A DNA stretch of 64,000 bases from NCBI GenBank assembly GCA_021772015.1, contig JAETNS010000006.1:82098-146097 (forward strand), read 5' to 3'. The translations under genes and the position numbers were made by a program. Shown here piece by piece: positions 1 to 13,300 of this stretch. The stretch comes from Prevotellaceae bacterium. Lineage in GTDB: Bacteria; Bacteroidota; Bacteroidia; Bacteroidales; Muribaculaceae. The notes under the pieces are model-generated. The model had not been told where the DNA came from, did no database searches, and saw nothing but the letters and a program-made list of their open reading frames with translations. Numbering within the stretch: the stretch's first letter is position 1; each line of letters starts with the position of its first letter.

Positions 1-2829
1 ATAGACAACTGTCATTACGCGATCCCGGAGGAAACAGCCAAGGTAGAGATCGCTCTGATCTCATCTGACGGCGCGACTCGCAACTATGAGGCGGATCTGG
101 TGCGTGGCACCGACAGCTCCGACTTCCATATGTATATCCCTTCCTCCTCCCCGTTGGAAGACGGCCGGTATGTCATGACTCTCCGTATGCCGGGAGGACC
201 CGGCATCGGTGGACGGCTGATGGTCAATTTTGCAGATAACCACTTGACCAAAACAGAAATATCTCTTCCTGACTATCTGCTTGAAGGGGAAGGTACACAA
301 GAAGAGCCTTACCTCATCCCGGATGATGACAGTTTCAACATGTTCACCATCAACCTCGATGAAGACGAAGCTCACGGAGCCGGACTTTACTTCCTCCAGA
401 CAGCGAATGTCAGGCCGTCTGACCAAAGCATATACGCTCCCGGCCGTGGATACTGGGGCGCGCATTTCGCCGGAGATTACGACGGCGGAGGCCATACGAT
501 AGACGGCCTGTATTACAAGGGATCCGGACGCGACGATTCCGACTCCTGCTTCGGACTGTTCCGCGAACTGCGCGGCCACGCCTCTGTCCACAATGTGAAT
601 GTCAGGGGTGTCTCTGTCAGCGGCATCTACAAAGAGGGAGGAGTGATCGCCGGCCGTTCCACCGGAAATCATGTAATAAGCGATATCTCCCTCTCGGGAT
701 ATATGGGAGACGAAGGGGCCGGATCGTATATGGGCGGTCTGATCGGCCATGTCGTGTCAGGCTCGGTGGCGGCTTCGGGGATAGATTTCAACCTGGATGT
801 CGCCGGTACATATTATATCGGCGGAATGTTCGGAGCCATCGACCAAAACGCACACGTCGATGTGTCGGGTGTGAGGACCTCCACCACCCATTTCAGCGTC
901 AGCGGAGATGAATATACCGGAGGAATAATCGGCCTATGCGACGGAGGCTTCACCATTGAGGATATACGTCTCGACCATAAAGTGTCGTCTGAAGATGACG
1001 ATATACGGATCATCACCGCCAGCCGGGAGGCGGTCGGTGGCATCGTCGGTATCATCTCCTCAAAAGCGACATCCGAACTTGCCATACGTGACGTGAGGAT
1101 CACATGTCCCGTCGGAGGGAATGCCAATAGTGTCGGGGGCATCGTGGGTTATGCCGCCCATTCCTCGAAACTTCGGCTTTCCGGCTGTCGCGTTTACTCG
1201 ATAGTGTCCGGGAAAAAATATGTTGGCGGAATATTCGGCTATGCAGATTTCAGCGGATCGGTAAGTGTCGAAGGCACTGACGACGACACCCGGGTAACCG
1301 TAGATGACATGGCCGCCAACATCTCGGGGAATGAATATGTCGGCGGTTTCGCCGGCCATTGGCTGGGGAAATATGAGCCATCCGCCCGCGTTCATGTCAA
1401 TCTGCCGGTCAATGCTTCCAAGCTAAATTGCGGCGGCGCGTTCGGTCATGTGAGCCGCACCGATTTCCGTCTTGCTGATTTCAAGATCGGGGAAAGCTCC
1501 GACTCTGACAAGGAAGACCCGGTGATGCGAGTCAATGGAAAGCAGAACACCGGCGGTTTCGCAGGATACATGGAATATGGCAGCCTCAAAGGGCCCGACA
1601 GCTTCAATTACGCTGAAAACGGTCATGGCATACAGGTCCCTGACGTGAACCGTTTCCATCCGGGCTACAGCTCGGTAGTGCAAGGCACGGAAAGTGTCGG
1701 AGGACTCGTCGGGTCAGCTGTAGGGTGTCCCTTCACCGGTGTGTCATGCAATGCCACTATCCTCGGAGAAAAGAACACAGGGGGAATCGCAGGATATTTC
1801 GAGGAGAAAGAGGATTACAGCCATCTGGAGGACTGCGCTTTCTTCGGGACAGTCAAAGCAGGCAAAAGCGACAACACCGGCGGTATCGTAGGTTTCTTCA
1901 TGTCGCAATGTGGGGGCAGACTCCAGGACTGTGTGAACTATGCGGAGATTCTTGGCAAGAACTGCACGGGCGGTATCGTCGGACTGGCCAAAAAAGACCG
2001 TCCCAACCAGGACAACGGCCATTCAAGGACACTTAACTTCAGCTGGTGTGTGAATGTCGGTAAGATCACCGGCGGGAAGAACATCGGGGGCATTGTCGGT
2101 TTCGCCAACAGCCTTAAAGCTGACGAGGGCTACAAGGACAATGATGAGCAGGATATCAGCATCTACGACTGCATGAACCGGGGAGATGTCACCGCCACCG
2201 GCGATGACGGAGGCGGCGGTGCCGGAGGTATCGTTGGTTTCACCGAGCAGAGGATCGGGATAGGCCGTTGCGCCAACCACCACCATGTCCATTCAACCGC
2301 CCAGCTCCAAGGCGTGGGCGGGATCGGCGGACGCGTGGGCCGCGACGCGTCAGGCTTCGGAATGTTCAACTTCTGGCTAAACATGCGTATCGACGAATGC
2401 GTAAACCGTGGAGAGGTATCATCAGACAATTCCAACACACGTGTAGGAGGGATTGTCGGCTATCAGGAGGAGGGAGATCACAGCTACATCTTTAACAACC
2501 TCAACGCCGGGCCCGTGACATCCGACCAACACCACGACAACGGAGGTATTGTCGGATATGTAGACCACAACGGCTACTGCCAGTACAATGTCAATTCCGG
2601 AAAAGTCAGTCATGGCAACGCGATCGTGGGGGACCATAAAGGAGCTTTCACATACGGCATCAATTATTTCCTGGACGGCAGCGGCAAAAAATGGCCCGAG
2701 AATTCCCATTGTCTGAAATCAAGCGACTTCAAGAAGCAGTCAAGCTTTCAGCAACTCGACTTCGACCGTTATTGGACGATGGGATCCAACGGTCCAGAAC
2801 CGAAAAACTGCCAGTGGCGCAATCTTTGA
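1..2829 (+). CDS. Large GLUG-motif repeat surface/exported protein, 5' truncated by the window edge
   Basis: Frame 1 is open from base 1 (IDNCHYAIPEE...) into the 909-aa ORF. It has many (V/T)GG(I/L)(V/A)G repeats typical of GLUG-motif proteins and a 'GEGTQEEPYLI...FAGDYDGGGHTIDGL' segment. Confidence 0.8.
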   Translation: MDNCHYAIPEETAKVEIALISSDGATRNYEADLVRGTDSSDFHMYIPSSSPLEDGRYVMTLRMPGGPGIGGRLMVNFADNHLTKTEISLPDYLLEGEGTQEEPYLIPDDDSFNMFTINLDEDEAHGAGLYFLQTANVRPSDQSIYAPGRGYWGAHFAGDYDGGGHTIDGLYYKGSGRDDSDSCFGLFRELRGHASVHNVNVRGVSVSGIYKEGGVIAGRSTGNHVISDISLSGYMGDEGAGSYMGGLIGHVVSGSVAASGIDFNLDVAGTYYIGGMFGAIDQNAHVDVSGVRTSTTHFSVSGDEYTGGIIGLCDGGFTIEDIRLDHKVSSEDDDIRIITASREAVGGIVGIISSKATSELAIRDVRITCPVGGNANSVGGIVGYAAHSSKLRLSGCRVYSIVSGKKYVGGIFGYADFSGSVSVEGTDDDTRVTVDDMAANISGNEYVGGFAGHWLGKYEPSARVHVNLPVNASKLNCGGAFGHVSRTDFRLADFKIGESSDSDKEDPVMRVNGKQNTGGFAGYMEYGSLKGPDSFNYAENGHGIQVPDVNRFHPGYSSVVQGTESVGGLVGSAVGCPFTGVSCNATILGEKNTGGIAGYFEEKEDYSHLEDCAFFGTVKAGKSDNTGGIVGFFMSQCGGRLQDCVNYAEILGKNCTGGIVGLAKKDRPNQDNGHSRTLNFSWCVNVGKITGGKNIGGIVGFANSLKADEGYKDNDEQDISIYDCMNRGDVTATGDDGGGGAGGIVGFTEQRIGIGRCANHHHVHSTAQLQGVGGIGGRVGRDASGFGMFNFWLNMRIDECVNRGEVSSDNSNTRVGGIVGYQEEGDHSYIFNNLNAGPVTSDQHHDNGGIVGYVDHNGYCQYNVNSGKVSHGNAIVGDHKGAFTYGINYFLDGSGKKWPENSHCLKSSDFKKQSSFQQLDFDRYWTMGSNGPEPKNCQWRNL

Positions 2830-2909
2830 AAGTGTCGCAAACCACCCCTTGAGTCACCAATAAACAGGAGACAGCACAACAAAAAAACACCGCCGGCTGT
2901 TATACTTCA

Positions 2910-2947
2910 AAAGTCTGTTCGATTCCCATTGGATTTGAGCAGACTTT
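2910..2947. repeat. Imperfect inverted repeat upstream of the 2969 gene
   Basis: AAAGTCTGTTCGA (2910-2922) pairs with TTGAGCAGACTTT (2935-2947), with two G-T pairs. Confidence 0.6.
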
Positions 2948-2968
2948 ATCTTCTACAACTGATTCACT

Positions 2969-3898
2969 ATGAAGAAAGACCTGATATTTTTTGCTTCCGA
3001 CGGTAAAGGGCTGACATCAACTTCGGCCAACCATATCGCCAACATGGCGAAAGAGATGATACGCACCCTTGAGACAGAACTCCAGGGGATGGTGTTCTAT
3101 TCAACTGAAGTTGCCCTTATCGGTAATGACAACATCAATACCCTCTCTATCGGGAGCGACGACTCAACCGTCAAGGCGACCGCCGACAAACTTTTCAGGA
3201 TCGCCCGGGCCAAATCCCTGATAGCATGGCTACGGGAAGCCATCAAAGCCAAGGAACGTCTTATAAAAGAGACAGAAGCCTTGACAATCCAAGATTTCGC
3301 CAAATCAGCAGGTATAGAGATCCCCGAAGCCCCGAAATATTCCGAACCGCTTACGGAAGATGAATATTACGCGTCCCTTTCGCTCCAGGAACGTAACCGT
3401 TACTATGAACTTGAGACCTTGGCGGCGGTACTGGGCAAAGAGATCCACCCGGGCGGAAGTTTCGCCGATGCCCGCGACAACCTGGCCAGACGTATGGCCA
3501 ATCCACATGATGTCAAAGGTGACGGACGCGACACACTGATCTACTCCTACCGCCCGACGGTAAGCGCGGATGTTGTGGAATCGGTCTACTTTGATCTTCA
3601 GAAGTTATACCGGGAAGCGCAAGCCAAACTTAACGCGATCAAATACGAATGTGAGAAAGCGGTACGTGAAGCCGGTATCAGAGCACAGACCGAATTCACC
3701 AAGGCCACAGAAGCGTGGAACGCCCGGATGGAGGATATCCGCAACCGCCGCGCCGAGTATATCCGCAAAAAGACAAAGGAATACGGCGACATGAAGATAA
3801 CGATCCCTTACTCCCTGGATGGCATATACACCGAAGTTTCCCGATTGGGAAAGGAAGGGGAAGATAATCAACAATCCAAAGAGGATCAACCATCATAG
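2969..3898 (+). CDS. Uncharacterised alpha-helical/coiled-coil protein (309 aa)
   Basis: Long ORF with an A-rich upstream context, rich in E/K/A/R helical segments, with no catalytic motif recognised. Confidence 0.85.
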   Translation: MKKDLIFFASDGKGLTSTSANHIANMAKEMIRTLETELQGMVFYSTEVALIGNDNINTLSIGSDDSTVKATADKLFRIARAKSLIAWLREAIKAKERLIKETEALTIQDFAKSAGIEIPEAPKYSEPLTEDEYYASLSLQERNRYYELETLAAVLGKEIHPGGSFADARDNLARRMANPHDVKGDGRDTLIYSYRPTVSADVVESVYFDLQKLYREAQAKLNAIKYECEKAVREAGIRAQTEFTKATEAWNARMEDIRNRRAEYIRKKTKEYGDMKITIPYSLDGIYTEVSRLGKEGEDNQQSKEDQPS

Positions 3899-4191
3899 GT
3901 ATCGGCAGGAGGCAGCTGCCCGATCAGGGAGCGCAGCCTCCGAAAGGATTGTCCGACAGCCTGATACATAAACACTTCGGGCTTCAAAACCCGAAATATC
4001 AGAATTTTCCGGAAACAATAAACAACAACTGTCCGGGGGAGCTTCGGGGCACCGGAAAACATGGTGCCATCCCTTTTGTTCCTGTGAGGGCTTGATTGCC
4101 GGAGGAAGTTTTTGTTTTTGTGGCTACCCCGGGTTTTCGCTCTTGTTTTCGGTTTAGTCTTCGTCGGCTGTGAAGGCATCCTGTCGATACC
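3898..4191 (+). ncRNA. Candidate structured non-coding RNA domain immediately 3' of the 2969 gene
   Basis: 13-bp closing stem GGTATCGGCAGGA (3898-3910) / TCCTGTCGATACC (4179-4191). Internal hairpins at 3939-3948 (GAAA loop), 3961-4002, 4007-4038, 4048-4068 and 4071-4090. A GU-rich tract lies at 4108-4167. Confidence 0.65.
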
Positions 4192-4193
4192 GG

Positions 4194-4238
4194 CAGGGTT
4201 GACAGTCAGGGTAAATTCCCAGCTGTCAACCCTGTTTT
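4194..4238 (+). terminator. Intrinsic terminator ending the 2969 gene/RNA unit
   Basis: Perfect 12-bp IR CAGGGTTGACAG / CTGTCAACCCTG followed by TTTT. Confidence 0.75.
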
Positions 4239-4310
4239 CATCTTTTGCCCCTTCACTCCATGTTTTTGTTTAAATTTCGATAAATATTTGCAGGAATAAA
4301 AAAAACTGTC

Positions 4311-4318
4311 TAACTTTG
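4311..4318 (+). promoter_or_regulatory. Bacteroidetes -7 promoter element for tRNA-Gln
   Basis: TAACTTTG matches TAnnTTTG, and a TTTG lies at 4287-4290. Confidence 0.6.
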
Positions 4319-4360
4319 CAACGCTTTAGGGTCTTCAAGACGACCTTGGGCGATAAGGAT

Positions 4361-4431
4361 TGTCTTATGGTGTAATGGTAGCACTGCAGTTTTTGGTTCT
4401 GCCTGTCTTGGTTCGAATCCAGGTAAGACAA
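4361..4431 (+). tRNA. tRNA-Gln (TTG)
   Basis: Acceptor stem TGTCTTA/TAAGACA, D-arm TGGTGTAATGGTAGCAC, anticodon loop TTTTGGT, T-arm CTTGGTTCGAATCCAGG. CCA is not encoded. Confidence 0.95.
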
Positions 4432-4432
4432 C

Positions 4433-4478
4433 ACAGATAAGCGGGTCAAGCAAACATTAGCTTGACCCGCTTATCTGT
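4433..4478. terminator. Terminator between tRNA-Gln and the convergent lyase gene
   Basis: Perfect 19-bp IR ACAGATAAGCGGGTCAAGC / GCTTGACCCGCTTATCTGT. Confidence 0.8.
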
Positions 4479-4543
4479 TCAGGCGGAGATATCCGGGATC
4501 CATCCACCTATTGGCAATATGTGACCAAAGGCAACATATAGGC

Positions 4544-6937
4544 TTATTGAAGTTTACGGTATTTCCGCAAAAGAGCCTCAAGATAGTAATAGTCTGCATA
4601 CGCCAGAGGGACATCTATCTCTGAATTTGCCGGATGATGCCCTGTGGAATGCCCCAGTATGAACCCATTTGTTTCATGCGGCAGGCGGTAATTTCGAGTC
4701 AAGGCGGCAAGTATTGAATCGGCCACCTGACTGTAATGACCTGATTTTTCAGGCGACACATAGTCGGCAAGCTCATACAGGCCGGAGGCAATGACGGCAG
4801 CCGCGGATGCGTCACGCGGTACATCAGGGTTGTCTGATATCTCTGTGCCGGGGGCTTTCATGTCCCAGTATGGTACAAGGTCATCAGGAAGACCCGGTAA
4901 CGACAGGAACCAGTCGACCACCTCCTCCGCGCGGTCAAGATAACGCTTTTGGCGCGTGAAGCGATAGCACATCGTGAATCCATAAAGTGCCCAAGCTTGT
5001 CCCCTGCTCCAGAATGAATCGTCGGAATAACCCTGGGCCGTGACTTTCATGCGCGGTTCTCCTGTCACAGGGGAATAATCCACGACATGGAAACAGGAAT
5101 GGTCATCGCGAAAATGGTTTCTAAGAGTCACGTCGGCATGGCTGATTGCTATGTCACGAAAAGTCGAGTCACAGGTCACGTTGGTGGCATTGAAGAGCAT
5201 CTCAAGATTCATCATATTGTCTATGATCACGGGATATTTCCATTCTTCCGGGTTATGGTCCCATGAACGGATCGCTCCCACTACAGGATTGAAACGCGTG
5301 GCCAGAGTCGCTGAAGCCTGCAACATCACATCGAGGTAATAATCATTGCCGGTAAGCTCCCATCCTTTCCCGAAACTGTCTCCGATCATGAAACCAAGGT
5401 CATGGGTGCCTCCATGATTTTTCGCCATCTCTATGTCGCGTGAAAAGGTGTCTGCCCGGTCGCGCCACCACGGATCATTGGTGAAATCATACATCATCCA
5501 CAATTCCCCGGGGAAAAATCCCGAAGTCCAATCGTGGGGATGAACCAATACGAGCGAGCCATCCGGGTTTGTTGTCCTCGGATTCACTTTCCCCTCGGAG
5601 TGATTTGCCGGGCGCATCCGTTCATCCATGACAGATTCCACCATATTGCGTAGAGAGGTTGCCGCGTTGACAAACACATCATCAACCATGTCGGGGACAT
5701 AATATGTCAATGTGAACCTCTCGGCAGGATCAAAACGGCGATAACGACGATAAAGCGCGACATAATCACAACGTGCCGGATCGACAGACGATGCCACACG
5801 CCAAAGATCGCGGGCTAAAGCCTGCTGTTTCTCCTCCCATGACGAAATCTGTTTTCCGGGCCACTCTTTCACATCCTTTCCAAGGAAAGATACGAGAAAA
5901 TCAAGCCCACGGTAAAACGACCGGCCTTCCTGATCTGTCTCACTGTCAATTCTTATGCCAAGTTTGTCTGCCATCAGAAAGAGATCTATATAATGTGACA
6001 GATTGTATTGCGAGTAGCCGAAAGACAATGTGCGCCACATCTCATGAGGTTGAGTTCCATCGGGGGCGATCTGGGTGAATATTCGGCGGGAAGGGAATGA
6101 CTCTATTATTCCACGGGCGAGATCCAACCGACCGGTATAGATCGCCAAAGCCACCACCTCCACGTCATAGGCCGTGGAATGGTTGTTGGCCTGCCGCGAT
6201 TCCTCCTGTCCCTGAGGTGAGTCAAGCATCCAGTCAAGCATCGCGCCCATCCATTCCTTCAACCTGCGGTCATCCTCCGCCGACCATGCTCCCGAACCGT
6301 CAAGCAGAGCGACACCGTCAAGCAATCCTACCAGGGAATAACCGTCAAGCACTCCGAATGGCCGTCCCTTCCATCCGTTCACACCCGGCACCATCTGGGC
6401 ATATTCAAAATTAGGGTTCATCTTTGTGTCCGGGTCAAGAAACCAACACCTCAGCTGCTCGGCGGCCTTGGCGGCATAACGCCCGTCATGGCTGAAAAAC
6501 CATGCTAAGGACAAATCCATAACGCGGTCCGACATCAGCCCGAAGTTTTCCCTGTCCCATAATGAGATTTCAGGATTTGTAAGACCGTCACGGTTAACAT
6601 ATGGCAGTCCGTCAGGGGATGCGGGATCGGGATGAAAATATCTCGCAAGGCTGACATAGTCGTGATTGTCGCCACTTGGGGATTGTCTTTTTTTCATCAT
6701 GACCGACAATGGCTGAAGCATCAGAAGCGAATCCGCGTCGGCAATCAACGAAACGTATGCCTCGGCATACATCGGACGATCAAGGTTTTCCCTGACTGAG
6801 TCAAGATGACCACGGCTCAGCACTGCCTGGGCTACACAATGTTGTGTCATCATAAAAGCGGCAATCAGGATACAAAACATTTCACATCGTATGCCACAGT
6901 TGATCAACTTGCGGCCACATATACTATTCTTATGCAT
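4544..6937 (-). CDS. Alginate_lyase-family (PL38-like) polysaccharide lyase fused to a GH88 unsaturated glucuronyl hydrolase
   Basis: N-half has 'HDYVSLARYFHPDP..DGLPYVNRDG' and 'NNHSTAY'. C-half has 'WTSGFFPG', 'THDLGFM', 'IIDNMMNLE' and 'WSRGQAW', typical of GH88. A signal-like N-terminus is present. Confidence 0.8.
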   Translation of the reverse strand: MHKNSICGRKLINCGIRCEMFCILIAAFMMTQHCVAQAVLSRGHLDSVRENLDRPMYAEAYVSLIADADSLLMLQPLSVMMKKRQSPSGDNHDYVSLARYFHPDPASPDGLPYVNRDGLTNPEISLWDRENFGLMSDRVMDLSLAWFFSHDGRYAAKAAEQLRCWFLDPDTKMNPNFEYAQMVPGVNGWKGRPFGVLDGYSLVGLLDGVALLDGSGAWSAEDDRRLKEWMGAMLDWMLDSPQGQEESRQANNHSTAYDVEVVALAIYTGRLDLARGIIESFPSRRIFTQIAPDGTQPHEMWRTLSFGYSQYNLSHYIDLFLMADKLGIRIDSETDQEGRSFYRGLDFLVSFLGKDVKEWPGKQISSWEEKQQALARDLWRVASSVDPARCDYVALYRRYRRFDPAERFTLTYYVPDMVDDVFVNAATSLRNMVESVMDERMRPANHSEGKVNPRTTNPDGSLVLVHPHDWTSGFFPGELWMMYDFTNDPWWRDRADTFSRDIEMAKNHGGTHDLGFMIGDSFGKGWELTGNDYYLDVMLQASATLATRFNPVVGAIRSWDHNPEEWKYPVIIDNMMNLEMLFNATNVTCDSTFRDIAISHADVTLRNHFRDDHSCFHVVDYSPVTGEPRMKVTAQGYSDDSFWSRGQAWALYGFTMCYRFTRQKRYLDRAEEVVDWFLSLPGLPDDLVPYWDMKAPGTEISDNPDVPRDASAAAVIASGLYELADYVSPEKSGHYSQVADSILAALTRNYRLPHETNGFILGHSTGHHPANSEIDVPLAYADYYYLEALLRKYRKLQ

Positions 6938-6981
6938 GACTGTAATTATCTTTCTGTTCTATTTGTTTTGAGACAACAGTG

Positions 6982-9621
6982 TCAGTTTCCAATCTTCCTG
7001 ACCTTTATCGCAGACAGCGACGTAACGCAACCTTTCACGGGCAAGAATGAGATTTTCAATCCGCAACTACCCTCTACCTTGGCGAGGTGACGCAATCTGA
7101 CCATACTCATCAAGCCCGACCGTAAGGCCGGGGCAAACCCCTCCTCCACCTTTACTCCATTGATCATCATATCCATCCCCACAGCAGGCTCTCCACCGCT
7201 GTTTCCATCAACATGCCCGAGAAGATAGGCTGACGAGGAGGAGGGCGCAGCATTATCGGCAAACAGCATTTCCACCTCATAGTCGCCATCAACGACATCA
7301 AAACGGTATTCGTCAATACCCGTCAGACGACTCTGCAACAAGGGAGTGTCGGTTGTCAATCCGATAATTTCCTGTGTCGTACCTGGGTCTCCCCCGCCAT
7401 GGCCATAAAGGGAACCCTCGGAATACTGCTTGTCAGGCAACCATACAAGTCCGTCATATCCCGACGAAAAATAACATTTTGAACCGACATTCACGGCCAG
7501 TTCCTCCGTAGACAGGTCAATTCGCCCCTTTCTGACCGGGATCACAGACAACGAGACCGTAAATGTATCCAGCGGTCTGACGGTATCTTCCGGGGCGAAA
7601 ATTTCAAGGGTGTTGTCACCGTCACGCAGCACGACATCAAACATCGCGAAGTAATTAGACACCTGACTCAACCGGAGGTCTCCCCCATTTACCCGCATCG
7701 CAATCTCCGGCAAATTGGTGTAAGCCTTGATCTGACGCGTCACACATCCGAGAGAATCTGACAGTTCGGTCCGAGCCGGCCAGTCACGGGCGGCGATATG
7801 AGCGACCGTATCACAATCGGGATTACTCCATGCCGCTTTGAAATAATAATATACATCCTTTTTCCGACGGTCATTCGTGACCAGACCTTTGTTGTTTATC
7901 CCCGGCATCGACTCCTTGCGGTTAGCGGAAGAAAAGTCTATGAAATTCCAATGCGAAGCTCCTGCTACGTAATCGGTCAGTTCAATGACCGGAATATAAT
8001 GTTCGAGGAATTTCTGCTGATATTCGACGCTGAAATCAAAAGGCTCGGGATCAAGGGAGTGAAGGCGCAGATCCGACCCCGCGCCATACTCGCTGACAAT
8101 TATAGGTGCGGAAGGATGAGCAGCATGCTGTCTGGCGAGGAACTCCTCGAAACCCTCAAGCTCTCCGCCATACCACCCATGATACAGATTCCATCCTTTG
8201 ACACGCGTTATATCCCCCAGGCCGCATTGATCATATATGTCGTTGCCATGGAATGCCATCGCAGACATCCGGGTGGTATCTTCCGATTTCAGAATTTCCT
8301 CCAGTCTGCGCGCCAGACGCAATGTCCGGTCAATTGTCTCCGATCTTTCATTCTGCGGAAGTTTCAACAAAATCTCATTCATATACCCCCACATCGCTAT
8401 GGAGGGATGATTACGATGCCATCTTATCATATCCTTCAGCATCGTCGCCGCGTTTTCGGCATAGATGTCTGACAGAGGCACATAATCAATCACGGGAATC
8501 TCCTCCCATGCGATCAGTCCCAGACGGTCGCACATCTCCAATACCGCATCATCCTGAGGGTAATGACTGATCCTTATGAAATTCGCCCCCAGCTCCTTTA
8601 TCAACCGCATGTCTTGTCTGTGTTGCGTGTCAGACATGGCTATCCCCATCGGATAGCGGTCTTGATGACGACACATTCCACGCAATTTATATGGCTTCCC
8701 ATTAAGAAGAAACCGTCCACGGTCATCAAACCCGAAGGTTCTAAATCCCACGTACTCCTTACCACAGTCTTTAATCCCTTTCCCCTCGGCAATAATTACC
8801 TCAACGCCTTATGACACAGGAGTTTCGGGAGTCCATTCCTCCATACCCGCCAAGCCACCGATCTCCATACTGAATCGATCATTACCCGACGGCGCCATAC
8901 CCAAAAACTCTTCTTCAGCGGCGACGGTCTTCCCATCAGGGCCGTAAAGTATGACTCGTAACGAACCGCTGAATGGTTTTGAAGATTCATTCACGACACG
9001 TCCCGACACATTCAGCCGCCATTTCCCGTCATGATCTTTGAATGTCTCGACCCGGAAGCCTGATGCCGGACCCTCATTAAGATCAAGATGGACCGGGTCC
9101 AGGGCGATCAGCCATACATCCCGGTAAAGGCCACCCATGAATGTGAAATCTCCCGATAGCGGGGGGATTCCCATTGACGAGTTGTCAACTTCTATCTCAA
9201 TATCGGCAGTTTTCCCCGGCACTACAAGATCGGTGATATCAACCACCTGAGGCGAATAGCCCCCGACATGCCGTCCCACTTCCTTACCATCAAGTGACAC
9301 CACCGATGAATTGGCGGCACCGTCAATTTTCATCAGGATCTTCTTGCCTGCAAAACGAGCAGGAATCTCCATTTTCTTTGAATACTTTCCCACACCGCGA
9401 CGATAGTCAGCCGTATCATACGCATCGATATTCCAACAATGAGGAAGATGCACATCTATCTCACAGGAATCCTCTGCGAACGAAAAACGCCAGCCGTCGT
9501 TTATGGTTGTCAGCTCCCGCATAGCCGAGCCGACACAAAAGATATGGGAGACACAGGCCAGCAGCAAGAGGCAATATCGGTGGATATCGGAATGCAGGAA
9601 ATGAAATTTTTCTCGATTCAT
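6982..9621 (-). pseudogene. GH2 beta-galactosidase-like protein with a C-terminal malectin-like domain, interrupted by one in-frame TAA at 8809-8811
   Basis: The 270-aa ORF (GH2 N-terminal domains) and the 589-aa ORF (TIM barrel 'RISHYPQ', 'WGYMNE', 'VSEYGA') are in the same frame and read TPETPVS*GVEVIIAEG...VGFRTFGF across the stop. Confidence 0.8.
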
Positions 9622-9853
9622 GGTAAAAGAAAGGTCTGTATGACTACAAAATTACTTTCTTCCCCGATTCCTCACAATAAGAGGTAAACCGTTTCGGTAA
9701 ACACCGAAACGAACATCACATTGATTATAAGCCAATTACAATTTTAAATAAATGAATATCGGTAAATCACTCACAGATACGGTTCCATCGACTGAAATTG
9801 CATCTCAACCATATTTGGAGTATCTTTGTAACCACTTAACAAAATGAAATCGA

Positions 9854-10222
9854 ATGGCGCGACACAATGAACTTGGGAAGTGGGGAGAGGAGCAGGTCGT
9901 GGAGAAGCTTCTTCTCGAGGGTTACACGATTGTAGAAAGGAACTGGAGGATGAACCATCTTGAAATCGACATCATTGCCACTCGCGGCGATGATATCGCG
10001 TTTGTGGAGGTGAAGACACGCGGTGACGGGGAGATGAATCCTCTCGATGCGATGACTCCAAGAAAGGTCGGCCTGCTGTGCCGGGCTGCCGAGACCTACC
10101 TTCGGATCAACAAGATAATGCTGAATCCCCGGTTTGATGTCGCCTCCGTCATTGGTGACGGCCATTCATGTGAAATCGAGTATCTTCCCAACGCCTTTCT
10201 TCCTCCATTGCGGACTTACTGA
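9854..10222 (+). CDS. yraN: YraN/UPF0102 family putative endonuclease
   Basis: 'LGKWGEE', 'ERNWR', 'EIDII', 'FVEVKTR', 'RFDV' motifs. Confidence 0.9.
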   Translation: MARHNELGKWGEEQVVEKLLLEGYTIVERNWRMNHLEIDIIATRGDDIAFVEVKTRGDGEMNPLDAMTPRKVGLLCRAAETYLRINKIMLNPRFDVASVIGDGHSCEIEYLPNAFLPPLRTY

Positions 10223-10309
10223 ATGGCTGGGTCATGAAATGAAAACGGGAGGACACCATAATTTAGCATCCTCCCGGTATTCACGTTAATTTTCTATTCC
10301 CAACCGGAA

Positions 10310-13300
10310 TTATTTCGCTTCATCGATCTGACGGAGAAGCACTCTCACTGCCTCATGGAGCTGGGCATCCTCCCCGGCAACGATCTGCTCTGGGGTATTG
10401 GCAACCTTAACATCCGGTTCAAGCAGGGTGTTTTCGAGGTAATTTCCTTCAGCCGTGCGATAGCCGATGACGGGAATTCCGAATACGAGCGACGGATCCT
10501 GGAGCGTCACCCAGTTTACCGATGTCATTGTCCCGGGAACCGGCATGCCGACCACCTTGCCTATCTTCCGGTGCTGGTATACCCAAGGAGTGCCGTGGGC
10601 GTTGCTGTAGCAAGGCTCGGCAACGAGCATCACGGAAGGCTTGTTCCATCGACGCGACGGCATGTCGCAGACATCCTTCCCACGGATCACCTGGGTCAGG
10701 TATTTCTGGCCCGTGAAAAGTTGCTCGATATCCTCATGCATACGGCCACCACCGTTCCAGCGTATGTCGATGACAACCCCCTCGCGGTTGTTGTATTTTC
10801 CAAGCAGGTCGGCATACATCGGACGGAACGACTCGTCGTTCATCGACTCGATATGGACATATCCCAACCGGCCGTCAGACCAGCGGTCGACATCGGCTGC
10901 GCGCTGTTTGATCCAGCGGCGATACATCAGGTCACTGATCTTTCCTGTCGGGCAGGGGATCACGACCTCCGAGACTTTCTCGCCGGAGGGTGTTGTGAAC
11001 GCCACAAGGGTTTTCTTTCCGGCGATATTGTTAAACAACTCCCCAAGATCGGTACCTGCATCAATCGCATGGCCATTGACAGCGGTCACGACCGCACCCT
11101 TCCCGATTTTCGAGGAAGCCTTGTCGAACGGGCCGTTGGCCAGAACCTCGTCGACTTTCAGTCCGTCGCCACGGTAATTCATGTCATAAAGCAGTCCCAG
11201 CGAGGCGGTACGATCAGAGGAGGAAGCATTGCCGGATCCGTAATAACGGCCGCCGGTATGGGAAACATTCAGCTCTCCAAGAAGCTCGCTCAGCATTTCG
11301 GCGAAATCATAGTTGTTGTTGATATGCGGCAGGAACTTACGGTATGCGGCTGTCATTGCGGGCCAGTCTATGCCATGCATACCGGTGTCATAGAATCGTT
11401 CCCCCTCCTCGACAGCGACATAATCGAACATCGCCTCCCGTTCGGCGGCGAGATCCACGTCATGGGTGGCAGATACCTTTATAGGGGTCAGCTTGTCACC
11501 CTTGTCGAGTTTCTTCATATCACGGCCTATGACGAACAGCTGTTTGCCCGATTTGTCGGCCTGGAGCGAAGCACCCGCGCTGCCCATTTTGGCGGCCAGT
11601 TTAGGCTCGCGCTTGCGCAGGGGGAGTTTCCAGAGGTCATATCCATCCTCTACCTCACAAAGGAAATACAAAGTCTCACCATCTGCGGTCACGATCGCAT
11701 CGGCCAGTGAGGAGCTGAAAGGAGTCAGACGCATCACACGGTCTTCTATGCCGTCAAGTTCGACAACGATATTCTTCGTGTCATCCTTCTTGTCTGCGTC
11801 ATCATTCTTCCCTTTCTTACCCTTCTTGTCGGCTTTCGCGTCATCCCCTTCCGATTTCTTGGATGCCTTCTTTTCCTGCTCTTTCAAAAGAGCGTAATCC
11901 TCCTCCGAAAGCATGAAACGGTCACGGGCCTCACGGTTCAGGAAGACGATCATGATATCATCCTGCGATCCCCATGAAGCCTGGGCGCGCAATCCGTATT
12001 GCTCGGTAAAGTATATTATGGCATTACCGTCAAGCACGAAGCGAGGATTAGCCTCCATATAGCCGGTATTGGTAAGGTTTGTGACCTTACCTGTCTCCAC
12101 CTCCACAAGGCCGATATCTCCATAAGGATCGCGCATGTCGGGAATGATCTCCATTGTCAACCACCGCGAGTCGGGGCTCCACTCGAAAGCCATGCCGTCA
12201 TCCTTTCCCGGGTATGTCTCCCCGGCGGTTATCTGCCGGTCGGTGCCGGAGGTAAGATCACGGATCCACAGTTGGTTGCGGTTCTTTACATAAGCCAGTT
12301 TCTTCCCGTCGGGCGAAACCGTCGGATGGGAGTACTCGGTCGCTTCACCTTTTCCGGAATATTCAGGAAAGACCGCCTCTTCTGTGAACTCCACAGCGTT
12401 GGGGAAGTCGGGGTCATCCTTGCGGGCGATCTTTGCGCGGAAGATATTCTTGCGGCCCGAACGTTCGGAGGTGTAATACAGCGACCGGTTGTCACTTCCC
12501 CATGAGAGGTGGCGTTCTGCCTGTGGTGTACGCGTCACCTGGACAGTGGTGGGATATTCCACCGATGTCACGAACACATCTCCACGGTTGAGGAAAGCTA
12601 CCATCTCACTGTTGGGAGACACCACTCCTCCCGAGGGCTTGACAGACAGACGGGCGGGACGAGCGGTGTCATCGGTAGCCAAAGTTATCTCAACCTTCTG
12701 CGGCACGGCCGCCCCACGGGCCGCGCGCCCCGGCATCGTGTAGATCTCACCGTCATAGGTGAATGCGAGTGTCCCGTTGTTCGCCCGTGAAAGGAAGCGG
12801 ACAGGATGGGTCTTGAAATCGGTCAGTTTCCTGGCCTGCGAGGGATCGTTGAGTGGGAAAGAATAGACATTGAATGTCCCTCCGTCACGCTCCGACAGGA
12901 AATAGACCGTCTCGGTCACAGCGTCAAGGACCGGATTGCGGTCCTCTCCCGCCCGATCTGTCAGGTTTCGGTGCTTTCCGTCTGCCGGGGTATACAGCCA
13001 GATGTCACGGGTCACGGAAGAGGTATGGTGTTTGCGCCACTCATCCTCAAACCCCTTGACATCCTGATACAGCATCTTGTCGCCGTCGGGAGAGAAGGAG
13101 AGCATTTTGGCGGGAGTGGCCAGCACCTGACGGGATTTACCCGTCTCTATATCCACCGCATACAGCTGGGTCATGCGCCCCGACGGATACATCACCGACG
13201 AAGCCGGAGCCTGGATCGCAGCTGAATAATAAACCTCCTTGCCGTCAGGGGAGAAACCCTCCGGGGTCTCGGCCGCGGAATTGGAAGTCAGCCGTCTGGG

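What the first reader, a model, noticed from the sequence alone, without database searches (positions are those of the whole stretch)
2969..4238. Uncharacterised coiled-coil protein with a ~300-nt self-enclosed structured RNA fused to its 3' end: candidate protein-ncRNA system
Seen: starting at the last base of the stop codon, GGTATCGGCAGGA (3898-3910) pairs over 13 bp with TCCTGTCGATACC (4179-4191), closing a 294-nt domain. Inside it are a GAAA-tetraloop hairpin (3939-3948), a two-helix hairpin (3961-4002), and hairpins at 4007-4038, 4048-4068 and 4071-4090. A perfect 12-bp terminator follows immediately (4194-4238). No convincing plus-strand ORF fills the region, and it matches no tRNA, tmRNA, RNase P, SRP or riboswitch signature I recognise. 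The 309-aa protein is helical with no recognisable catalytic motif. Inference: this is a self-contained two-component module in which the protein binds or oligomerises on the RNA, for example for defence, stress response or a selfish RNP. It sits beside a tRNA gene, a typical landing site.
Basis: partly seen in the sequence, partly recalled or inferred. Interest (0 to 1): 0.85.

Follow-up and report, generated by a model that had tools for sequence, protein, structure and literature searches.

The report
New protein with its own RNA
An unnamed 309-residue protein of gut Bacteroidales and their phages is always followed on the same strand by a conserved, folded ~290-base RNA carrying a strict six-base repeat; the pair probably forms an undescribed RNA-protein particle linked to RNA repair.

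Summary
The core of the finding is real. The stretch after ORF 2969-3898 is a conserved structured RNA, not chance folding. A covariance model of its core finds it on the same strand just after the stop codon. It hit every bacterial homologue locus tested with at least 44% protein identity, 73 of 80 phage contigs, and 22 of 23 further loci, most labelled Prevotella or Bacteroidaceae. Its helices covary strongly (about 90% paired against 59% in shuffles).

It has a hairpin P1, two long-range helices (P2, P3), a classic kink-turn hairpin, and a single-stranded (GNUNUN) tract repeated 2 + 5-6 times. That tract is the most conserved part.

The protein matches no Pfam, NCBIfam, PADLOC or PHROG family and has no PDB fold match. 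It has about 1,100 clusters at 50% identity. Neighbouring genes vary.

In relatives the pair lies next to WYL regulator genes and shares a promoter operator with rtcB. In phages it lies inside tRNA/tmRNA clusters. This window's copy has neither the operator nor rtcB.

Best reading: an RNA-protein particle tied to RNA damage or repair. Binding and function are inferred, not shown.

The scan noted this pair before in another genome (e1-4184541).

The parts
2969..3898 (+). ORF of 309 aa, an uncharacterised, mostly helical protein family. It has a 74-residue helix (200-273) and conserved motifs GLTSTSANHIANMAKE, SLIAWLREAIKAKE, ERNRYYELE, GK.IHP and G.GRDTLIY.
   Evidence: ORF. No Pfam, PHROG, NCBIfam or PADLOC hit. 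1737 homologues. 1106 clusters at 50% identity. AF2 pLDDT 89.7. No PDB fold match. One phage hit in BFVD at E 2.9e-11.
3898..3907 (+). P0, 5' strand of the outer closing helix. It pairs with 4182-4191. Seen in the window and its closest relative L003. Not tested systematically elsewhere.
Evidence: Sequence. No systematic test was made in the other loci.
3908..3941 (+). P1, a composite hairpin just after the stop codon. It has an outer helix GGAGGC/GCCUCC, an inner helix, and a loop with conserved CCCG..U..GG.
   Evidence: Alignment A6 and RNAalifold: all 5 inner pairs show compensatory changes. Outer-helix covariation seen by eye.
3942..3945 (+). Linker GAAA(G), equivalent to UAAYG or GAAUG in relatives, between P1 and P2.
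   Evidence: Alignments.
3946..3961 (+). P2, 5' strand of the long-range closing helix. It pairs with 4166-4181.
   Evidence: RNAduplex on 72 loci gives a 10-19 bp helix at the same position with unrelated sequences in each lineage.
3961..4002 (+). Variable-region hairpin, lineage-specific. Other loci carry different hairpins here.
4033..4042 (+). P3, 5' strand (CCGGGGGAGC), preceded by conserved UGU. It pairs with 4122-4132.
   Evidence: CM R1 and pair counts: all 9 pairs have double-sided changes in 72 sequences.
4046..4073 (+). Optional insertion hairpin between P3 and the kink-turn hairpin.
   Evidence: Present with different sequences in L003, L016, L022 and L045. Absent in most loci.
4079..4107 (+). 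Kink-turn hairpin. C-stem UUCC/GGAA (4079-4082 / 4104-4107), 3-nt bulge UGU, tandem G.A / A.G (4086-4087 with 4102-4103), NC-stem and loop GGGCUUGAUUGCCG (4088-4101). The sequence is box C/D-like (UGAUGA...CUGA in relatives).
   Evidence: G.A in 56/58 and A.G in 55/58 sequences. C-stem and NC-stem covary. Loops vary (UUGAYU, UGAC, GGAA, CGAC).
4108..4120 (+). Block A: GUUUUU GUUUUU G, two (GNUNUN) units inside the loop closed by P3.
   Evidence: In alignment A5 the G and alternate U columns are 94-100% conserved.
4122..4132 (+). P3, 3' strand (GGCUACCCCGG).
4133..4165 (+). Block B: GUUUUC GCUCUU GUUUUC GGUUUA GUCUUC GUC. This is 5-6 (GNUNUN) units, single-stranded, between P3 and P2. It is the most widely conserved feature of the RNA.
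   Evidence: A5 column frequencies: over the first five units G is 0.82-1.00 and U is 0.71-1.00 at odd positions, and even positions are variable. The pattern holds in the phage and the 32-38% identity bacterial homologues that R1 could align.
4166..4181 (+). P2, 3' strand.
4182..4191 (+). P0, 3' strand.
4192..4247 (+). Rho-independent terminator: a 12-bp perfect stem within 4194-4238, then UUUUCAUCUUUUG.
   Evidence: Equivalent + strand terminators follow the RNA in most bacterial loci.
4361..4432 (+). tRNA-Gln(UUG), same strand, 114 nt after the terminator. This is context: in phages a tRNA starts about 20 nt after the RNA.

Best explanation
The locus is a self-contained two-part module. One transcript encodes a ~300-aa helical protein of an undescribed family. 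Directly after the stop codon it carries a ~290-nt structured RNA that ends at an intrinsic terminator.

The RNA has:
- a hairpin (P1);
- two long-range helices (P2, P3) that bring its ends together;
- a kink-turn hairpin;
- a single-stranded tract of (GNUNUN) hexamers, 2 + 5-6 units.

I propose (inferred) that several copies of the protein bind this tract in six-nucleotide register. A conserved beta/aromatic 'head' would contact each unit and the long helices would pack side by side. The result would be an RNA-protein particle in which the RNA acts as scaffold or cofactor. This is comparable in role to Ro60 with Y RNA, or SPFH with its tRNA-like RNA.

I further propose (inferred from gene association in relatives) that the particle works in the response to RNA, and probably tRNA, damage. 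In many Bacteroidales it is controlled by a WYL regulator through the same operator that precedes rtcB. Phages carry it inside their tRNA/tmRNA clusters.

The copy in this window has lost that control. It has no operator, the genome has no rtcB, and its one WYL gene lies on another contig.
For: Shown:
1. RNA-protein linkage. nhmmer and CM R1 find the RNA on the + strand, about 80-280 nt after the stop. They hit all bacterial loci with >=44% protein identity, 73/80 IMG/VR phage loci, GenBank phage PQ006092.1, and 22/23 further loci, most of them labelled Prevotella or Bacteroidaceae. About 0.95 Mb of held flanking DNA gave only four other matches, all with E above 0.5.
2. Structure. 89.8% of cells are paired against 59.1% in shuffles and 29-50% in slid controls. 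Covariation score is 0.672 against 0.162, with 0/500 shuffles as high. P2 is a 10-19 bp helix with unrelated sequences in each lineage.
3. Strand. G-U pairs 32 against A-C 10, and + strand terminators.
4. Kink-turn signature in 55-56 of 58 sequences.
5. Hexamer tract. In A5 the columns at odd positions have G 0.82-1.00 and U 0.71-1.00 over five units, and the even positions vary. The block A to block B distance mod 3 is 34/21/9, so no reading frame is shared.
6. Module autonomy. Neighbouring genes are not conserved. The gene is single copy in all but one genome, in 35/401 family genomes and 10/35 genera.
7. Repair link. The operator TGCGCA-N7-TTGCGCA followed by a TAnnTTTG promoter lies upstream of the pair in about 14 of 40 loci and upstream of rtcB genes in three genomes. 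WYL+WCX genes lie adjacent or divergent in six loci. RtcB lies 1.4 kb downstream in viral contigs L110/L111. RtcB is present in 21/35 genomes with the pair against 116/366 without.
8. Phage context. The pair sits inside tRNA/tmRNA arrays on the same strand. A tRNA lies just upstream in PQ006092.1.
9. Protein. The AF2 model is confident (pLDDT 89.7) and elongated, and most invariant residues fall in or next to the small beta elements and adjacent helices.
Against: - No experiment and no RNA-seq.
- Protein-RNA binding is inferred only from co-inheritance and periodicity.
- The protein is not notably basic, and no known RNA-binding fold was detected.
- Loss of the kink-turn hairpin in 14/72 RNAs, including L034 whose protein is 58% identical and full length, shows that at least that part does not co-vary with the protein.
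- In this window's genome the repair link is missing. There is no RtcB, no operator, and the WYL gene is unlinked.
- RtcB was never adjacent in the 35 family genomes that hold the pair.
- The co-occurrence statistics are not phylogenetically corrected.
Confidence: 0.55

Rival explanations
1. Purely cis-acting 3' UTR. The structured RNA only stabilises or autoregulates its own mRNA. For example, the protein or a nuclease binds it to set the mRNA's half-life or translation, and it has no function as a separate RNA or cofactor.
For: The RNA lies on the same transcript, directly after the stop codon, and ends at a terminator. No separate promoter was identified. P0/P1 begin at or near the stop codon in some loci.
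Against: About 290 nt with a kink-turn, two long-range helices and a strictly periodic 45-nt tract, conserved from Muribaculaceae to Prevotella and large phages at 32% protein identity, is far more than known 3' stabilisers need. The distance from stop codon to P1 varies from 0 to about 130 nt, so there is no fixed coupling to termination.
Confidence: 0.17
2. The RNA is a functional non-coding RNA whose main partners are other factors, such as RtcB, tRNA-processing enzymes or a kink-turn-binding protein. The adjacent protein works in the same pathway but does not bind the RNA.
For: Kink-turns usually recruit L7Ae-type proteins or mediate tertiary folding (established knowledge). The kink-turn can be lost without any change in the protein (L034). 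The pair shares a regulon with RtcB. It lies in phage tRNA clusters, where RNase P or Z would process it.
Against: Strict one-to-one adjacency and shared orientation across more than 100 loci with otherwise variable neighbours is what obligate partners typically show. No other conserved neighbour exists.
Confidence: 0.15
3. A toxin-antitoxin or abortive-infection style defence or selfish module, in which the RNA neutralises a toxic protein (type III-like).
For: Patchy distribution (35/401 genomes), presence in phages, a repeat-containing RNA next to a protein gene, and a conserved TSTS/His/Arg residue set that could in principle form a metal-independent RNase site (inference only).
Against: No PADLOC hit. 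The gene order and the lack of an internal terminator are opposite to ToxIN-type systems. The repeats are 6 nt, not about 36 nt. The fold is helical, unlike ToxN/AbiQ. Routine carriage inside the tRNA clusters of large lytic-type phages and WYL/RtcB co-regulation point to repair rather than suicide.
Confidence: 0.07
4. The conserved tract is really a small basic protein gene on the minus strand (...KTKPKTRAKTRG...; ORF 3886-4179) or a hydrophobic peptide on the plus strand.
For: The hexamer tract reads as (K/R)(S/T/P/A) repeats on the minus strand, and a 97-aa ORF exists in the window.
Against: In every frame, one of the two would-be wobble positions in each hexamer stays highly conserved (71-100%) down to 32% identity of the neighbouring protein. 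The spacing between the two blocks is not a multiple of 3 (34/21/9). Frames break outside the tract, even between L005 and L006. Start codons are missing in several loci. Helices covary with G-U tolerated on the + strand. Terminators face the + strand.
Confidence: 0.02

Closest known systems
Ro60 (Rsr, TROVE) with Y RNAs in the rsr-yrlBA-rtcBA operon of Salmonella Typhimurium, and Rsr/Y RNA/PNPase in Deinococcus (Hughes et al. 2020, PMC7790460)
   Same: A protein gene lies next to its presumed cognate structured non-coding RNA. The pair is co-regulated with the RNA ligase RtcB by a ligand-sensing regulator. Counterparts exist in phages near tRNA genes. The RNA is proposed to act as scaffold or tether.
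   Different: The protein has no TROVE/vWA domain (no Pfam hit) and no structural match. The RNA matches no Y RNA model in Rfam and lies 3' of the ORF on the same transcript. The regulator is WYL, not RtcR/sigma-54. In this window's genome RtcB is absent.
SPFH/Band-7 protein + tRNA-like RNA + RtcB systems predicted by Burroughs & Aravind 2016 (Nucleic Acids Res 44:8525). Cited from my own knowledge and from the reference list of PMC7790460. The paper itself was not held.
   Same: The concept of a scaffold protein with a long helical region plus a cognate non-coding RNA attached to RtcB repair systems. In one phage lineage a Band_7 gene lies 1.5-2.5 kb downstream of the pair.
   Different: The protein is not SPFH (no Band_7 hit). 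The RNA is not tRNA-like (ARAGORN and Rfam negative). I could not check whether that paper lists this family.
Kink-turn (k-turn) RNA motif, including the box C/D type (RUGAUGA...CUGA)
   Same: C-stem, 3-nt bulge, tandem sheared G.A/A.G, then a non-canonical stem. Many copies read UGAUGA...C(U/G)GA.
   Different: It sits in a bacterial and phage RNA with no methylation-guide features. No bound protein is known. It is dispensable in 14/72 family members.
Periodic protein-assembly sites on RNA: the TMV origin of assembly (G every third base), TRAP (GAG/UAG every 5-6 nt) and the paramyxovirus 'rule of six'
   Same: A single-stranded tract whose conserved bases recur with a fixed period, as expected if identical subunits bind side by side.
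   Different: Here the period is 6 with conserved positions 1, 3 and 5 (G, U, U). The binding protein is only inferred. There is no homology to those proteins.

Membership tests
Any Rfam 15 RNA family | Covariance-model match at or near the gathering score | tested here: not met
   cmscan at E <= 1 over window 1-12000 gave only tRNA-Gln and a chance miRNA hit on the hairpin after the tRNA.
Kink-turn motif | Canonical stem, 3-nt bulge, tandem G.A / A.G, then a non-canonical stem | tested here: met
   Window 4079-4107. Across 58 sequences G.A is 56/58 and A.G is 55/58, the bulge is 3 nt, and both stems covary. The kinked 3D geometry itself cannot be tested here.
Ro60/TROVE - Y RNA system | Protein with a TROVE (and vWA) domain | tested here: not met
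   No Pfam or NCBIfam hit. No Ro60 among the PDB fold or sequence matches.
Ro60/TROVE - Y RNA system | RNA with a Y RNA stem and bulge, or a tRNA-like module | tested here: not met
   No Rfam Y RNA or YrlA match and no ARAGORN hit in 3898-4247.
Ro60/TROVE - Y RNA system | Operon or regulon shared with RtcB | tested here: inconclusive
   Not met in the window: the genome has no RtcB. Met in relatives: shared operator and RtcB adjacent in L110/L111.
SPFH/Band-7 - tRNA-like RNA - RtcB system | SPFH/Band_7 domain in the protein | tested here: not met
   No PF01145 hit for the window protein, whereas the phage neighbour L068:8573-9367 does hit Band_7.
Type III toxin-antitoxin (ToxIN, CptIN, TenpIN) | Tandem ~34-45-nt RNA repeats upstream of a ToxN/AbiQ-fold endoribonuclease, with a terminator between them | tested here: not met
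   The RNA is downstream, the repeats are 6 nt, and no terminator lies between. No PADLOC hit. The fold is helical.
WYL-regulated RtcB regulon of Bacteroidales (as inferred in this scan, e1-4184541) | Operator TGCGCA-N7-TTGCGCA just upstream of a TAnnTTTG promoter | tested here: not met
   Absent upstream of the window gene (2800-2968). The genome has no such site outside coding sequence. Present in about 14 of 40 related loci.
Intrinsic (rho-independent) terminator | GC-rich hairpin followed by a U-run on the transcribed strand | tested here: met
   4192-4247: 12-bp stem followed by UUUUCAUCUUUUG.

The most novel reading that the evidence does not exclude
The protein polymerises in six-nucleotide register on the (GNUNUN)n tract, a mode of RNA recognition with no described counterpart in bacteria. 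It would form a new class of cellular and phage ribonucleoprotein particle. Held together by P2/P3 and a kink-turn, this particle would act with RtcB on damaged tRNAs, or shield or escort tRNAs during phage infection. P2/P0 bring the RNA's ends together, so RtcB-dependent sealing or circularisation of the RNA is also not excluded.
Probability: 0.3. Interest if true: 0.88.

Novelty: new variant of a known kind. Interest (0 to 1): 0.78.

Why it matters
If the reading holds, gut Bacteroidales and their large phages share a third type of 'scaffold protein plus cognate RNA' module attached to RNA repair, alongside Ro60/Y RNA and SPFH/tRNA-like RNA. It would be built from a protein fold and an RNA family that are in no database.

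The family is large: about 1,100 clusters at 50% identity and more than 119 phage contigs.

The RNA offers clean handles for experiment: a kink-turn, two long-range helices, and a strictly periodic single-stranded tract. The tract gives a concrete hypothesis to test, namely periodic assembly of the protein on the RNA.

The module also makes two open questions directly testable. What do WYL-controlled RtcB regulons do in Bacteroidales? Why do phages place non-tRNA genes inside their tRNA clusters?

Tried and rejected
- Rfam scan: nothing.
- Pfam, PHROGs, NCBIfam, PADLOC, PDB sequence profile and PDB Foldseek for the protein: nothing significant. The best fold hit was ClyA at TM 0.19.
- Minus-strand basic peptide and plus-strand hydrophobic peptide readings: rejected. 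Would-be wobble positions stay conserved, the two blocks share no frame, and frames break between close relatives.
- Sister note's idea that A/C-rich loops pair with the GU tract: the A/C-rich segment upstream of P3 (4014-4031) is specific to the window and not conserved, while the GU tract is.
- RNAalifold on plain MAFFT alignments recovered only the kink-turn hairpin. A naive all-against-all column scan gave many false G-U helices. A hand-set structure and covariance model R1 were needed.
- Empty-site or insertion test: the upstream 993-aa gene has no relatives in genome contigs, and the best relatives of the downstream lyase-GH88 gene share no synteny. Mobility of the module could therefore not be shown.
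- Search for the WYL operator in the window's genome: only chance hits inside coding sequence.
- Burroughs & Aravind 2016 could not be read. Three literature searches found no description of this pair.
As a result there was no genome-wide test for RNA copies without the protein.
Full report
**What is in the window.** ORF 2969-3898 (+) encodes a 309-aa protein. A strong hairpin with a U-run follows at 4192-4247, and tRNA-Gln lies at 4361-4432. The region folds better than shuffles (z = -4.7), but so does its complement (z = -5.5), so folding energy alone proves nothing. Rfam at E <= 1 finds only the tRNA. The protein matches nothing in Pfam, PHROGs, NCBIfam or PADLOC.

**The protein family.**
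- The word-index search lists 1737 homologues, all unnamed.
- An exhaustive profile search finds 1106 clusters at 50% identity, 607 of them at E <= 1e-30. Nearly all of the 150 best listed are 280-320 aa long.
- In genomes of the window's family the gene is present in 35 of 401 genomes and 10 of 35 genera, as a single copy in all but one.
- Record titles place it mainly in Muribaculaceae (Duncaniella, Muribaculum, Paramuribaculum, Sangeribacter). Relatives at 32-46% identity occur in Prevotella and rumen Bacteroidaceae.
- It is also common in large phage genomes: 119 IMG/VR contigs, most of them 50-170 kb, and GenBank phage PQ006092.1 (98.6 kb, rodent faeces, 48% identity).
- An AlphaFold2 model built on 31 sequences is confident (pLDDT 89.7). 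It is elongated, with helices 17-39, 71-103, 139-177 and a 74-residue helix 200-273, plus two small beta hairpins.
- Foldseek finds no PDB match (best TM 0.19-0.27). In BFVD it finds one uncharacterised phage protein (E 2.9e-11).
- Invariant residues: G14, T16, T18, S19, N21, N25, W87, R89, E90, R142, H160, R169, G186, D188, Q211, R215, N222, K225. Most fall in or next to the beta elements and adjacent helices.

**The RNA is real and is tied to the protein.**
- Downstream DNA is conserved across homologues even though flanking genes are not.
- An nhmmer profile of the core hits the + strand 120-280 nt after the stop in every bacterial locus with at least 44% protein identity.
- I built covariance model R1 (154 positions; helices P3, P4, P5). 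It finds the element after the gene in all those loci, in 73 of 80 phage loci, in PQ006092.1 (55 bits), and in 22 of 23 additional loci, most of them labelled Prevotella or Bacteroidaceae.
- About 0.95 Mb of held flanking sequence gave only four other matches, all with E above 0.5.
- On 72 sequences, 89.8% of cells form pairs, against 59.1% in shuffles and 29-50% when partners are slid. The covariation score is 0.672 against 0.162, with 0 of 500 shuffles as high. 14 of 16 pairs show double-sided changes (43-sequence version).
- G-U pairs outnumber A-C 32 to 10, and the terminators face the + strand. The RNA is therefore read from the same strand as the gene.

**Architecture (window coordinates).**
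- P0: 3898-3907 / 4182-4191. Seen in the window and its closest relative. Not tested systematically elsewhere.
- P1: composite hairpin 3908-3941. Its five inner pairs all show compensatory changes.
- Linker GAAA(G), which is UAAYG in most relatives.
- P2: 3946-3961 / 4166-4181. This is a 10-19 bp helix at the same position in every lineage, with unrelated sequences, for example GCGGCCGGACGGGUGCC in L005 and AUACACACAGUGGAUGCUA in phage L090.
- A variable region with lineage-specific hairpins (3961-4002 in the window).
- P3: 4033-4042 / 4122-4132.
- An optional hairpin, 4046-4073.
- A kink-turn hairpin, 4079-4107.
- Block A: GUUUUUGUUUUUG, 4108-4120.
- Block B: 4133-4165.
- The terminator, 4192-4247.

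The kink-turn call rests on a covarying C-stem, a 3-nt bulge, G.A in 56/58 and A.G in 55/58 sequences, a non-Watson-Crick 3b.3n pair, and a covarying hairpin with interchangeable loops (UUGAYU, UGAC, GGAA, CGAC). Fourteen of 72 RNAs lack this hairpin altogether. One of them is L034, whose protein is 58% identical and full length.

**The hexamer tract.** This is the most unusual feature. In the 72-sequence alignment, block B has G at 1.00, 1.00, 0.88, 0.82, 0.96 and 0.73 at successive positions six bases apart. Over the first five units U is at 0.71-1.00 at hexamer positions 3 and 5, while positions 2, 4 and 6 carry little information. Block A shows the same pattern twice. By eye, the bacterial homologues at only 32-38% protein identity (L048-L051) keep a T-rich hexamer periodicity, for example CTTTGC repeated three times in L049. 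The tract survives as well in the phage RNAs that have lost the kink-turn and block A.

**The tract is not coding.** On the minus strand it reads as (K/R)(S/T/P/A) repeats, and the window has a 97-aa minus-strand ORF. Four things argue against a gene:
- In every frame one of the two would-be wobble positions in each hexamer stays highly conserved.
- The distance between blocks A and B is 0, 1 or 2 mod 3 in 9, 34 and 21 sequences.
- Frames break just outside the tract, even between the near-identical L005 and L006.
- The surrounding helices covary as RNA.

A strictly periodic single-stranded tract is what identical protein subunits binding side by side would select. The TMV assembly origin, TRAP sites and the rule of six are analogies drawn from established knowledge. 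The obvious candidate is the co-inherited protein. This step is inference.

3961-4002 and 4048-4068 are acceptable as variable or optional hairpins. The others conflict with covarying helices:
- 3939-3948 is the 3' strand of P1, the linker and the start of P2.
- 4007-4038 uses the 5' strand of P3.
- 4071-4090 uses the kink-turn strand.

**Context and function.**
- Neighbouring genes differ from locus to locus, so the pair is a free-standing cassette.
I tested that lead.
- The window's genome (99.99% complete) has no RtcB. It has one WYL+WCX gene, on another contig, between a DUF1573 gene and pdxA.
- The window's upstream region lacks the operator. It carries an 8-bp inverted repeat (2910-2917 / 2940-2947) instead.
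- In about 14 of 40 related loci, the gene is preceded by TGCGCA-N7-TTGCGCA placed directly before a TAnnTTTG promoter.
- The same operator precedes rtcB genes in three genomes, where rtcB is followed by a WYL+WCX gene.
- In six loci, including the most divergent homologues (L050, L051), a WYL gene lies next to the pair. It is divergent from the pair in at least four, with the operator(s) in between, and convergent after the RNA in L053/L054.
- In viral contigs L110 and L111, an RtcB 62% identical to a Muribaculaceae RtcB lies 1.4 kb downstream.
- RtcB occurs in 21 of 35 genomes with the pair against 116 of 366 without. This comparison is not corrected for relatedness, and the two were never adjacent in those 35 genomes.
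- In phages the pair sits inside tRNA/tmRNA arrays on the same strand. In several phages a tRNA ends under 50 nt before the gene, and in several a tRNA starts about 20 nt after the RNA (upstream tRNA in PQ006092.1). One phage lineage also has Band_7 and PRTase genes 1-2.5 kb downstream.
- The window's tRNA-Gln, 114 nt past the terminator, may therefore echo this arrangement rather than mark an integration site. I could not find a syntenic empty site to test insertion.

**Interpretation.** What is shown: a conserved, covarying, + strand structured RNA that is obligately linked to an undescribed protein family across Bacteroidales and their phages. What is inferred:
- The two form a particle, with the protein binding the hexamer tract.
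- The particle belongs functionally to the WYL/RtcB RNA-damage response and to phage tRNA biology. Its role would be like that of Ro60/Y RNA (PMC7790460) or the SPFH/tRNA-like RNA systems predicted by Burroughs and Aravind (2016; not readable here).

It fails the membership tests for those families: no TROVE, no SPFH, no Y RNA or tRNA-like module. It is best described as a new variant of the 'scaffold protein plus cognate RNA' theme, built from new parts. The rivals cannot be excluded without experiments: a purely cis-acting 3' UTR, an RNA that works with other partners, or a type III-like toxin-antitoxin.

**Limits.**
I could not test genome-wide whether the RNA ever occurs without the protein.
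- Three literature searches found no description of this pair.

Noticed in passing
L065:3174-3240 and 3998-4070 (G307 rtcB locus): Both divergent rtcB genes have, just after the operator and promoter, a shared leader sequence (..GGCAAGCCACCGCGUAYCG..). This may be a further conserved RNA element at the head of rtcB transcripts.
   Followed up: no
L068:7729-9370 (phage PQ006092.1) and >=13 IMG/VR loci: In one phage lineage a PRTase-like gene and an SPFH/Band_7 gene lie 1-2.5 kb downstream of the protein-RNA pair, all on the same strand. This recalls the SPFH-RtcB repair systems.
   Followed up: partly
L069:2178-2558, L073, L075, L090, L096, L139: These ~90-165 kb gut phage contigs encode their own tmRNA, with tag peptides such as GNTSYRAAA, next to tRNA-Arg genes and just upstream of the pair.
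   Followed up: no
L073:4152-4221, L075:4158-4227, L084:4158-4228: ARAGORN reports a tRNA-like gene with an abnormal 2-nt 'anticodon' directly after the RNA in several phages. It could be a degenerate tRNA or a tRNA-like processing signal.
   Followed up: no
window 2910-2947: An 8-bp inverted repeat (AAAGTCTG ... CAGACTTT, 22-nt loop) lies 22 nt before the start codon. It sits roughly where relatives carry the WYL operator and promoter.
   Followed up: no
window 1-2829: The upstream gene (>942 aa; 993 aa in metagenome contigs) is built from many G-rich 'GGIVG'-type repeats. It has no Pfam or NCBIfam match, and the one 309-aa piece searched (1900-2826) found no relatives in genome contigs.
   Followed up: partly
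window 4433-4478: A 19-bp perfect hairpin lies directly after tRNA-Gln, facing the converging lyase-GH88 gene. It is probably a bidirectional terminator. It produced a spurious miRNA hit in Rfam.
   Followed up: no
L009:2976-3908 and L011:2977-3909: In two related loci a tyrosine-recombinase-like ORF (310 aa; judged by reading the sequence, not searched) ends about 90 nt before the pair. This is the only hint of a mobile-element context seen.
   Followed up: no
L061 (G000 contig 15): The window's genome keeps a WYL+WCX regulator (300 aa, 31% identical to the rtcB-linked one) although it has no rtcB and no recognisable operator. Its target is unknown.
   Followed up: partly
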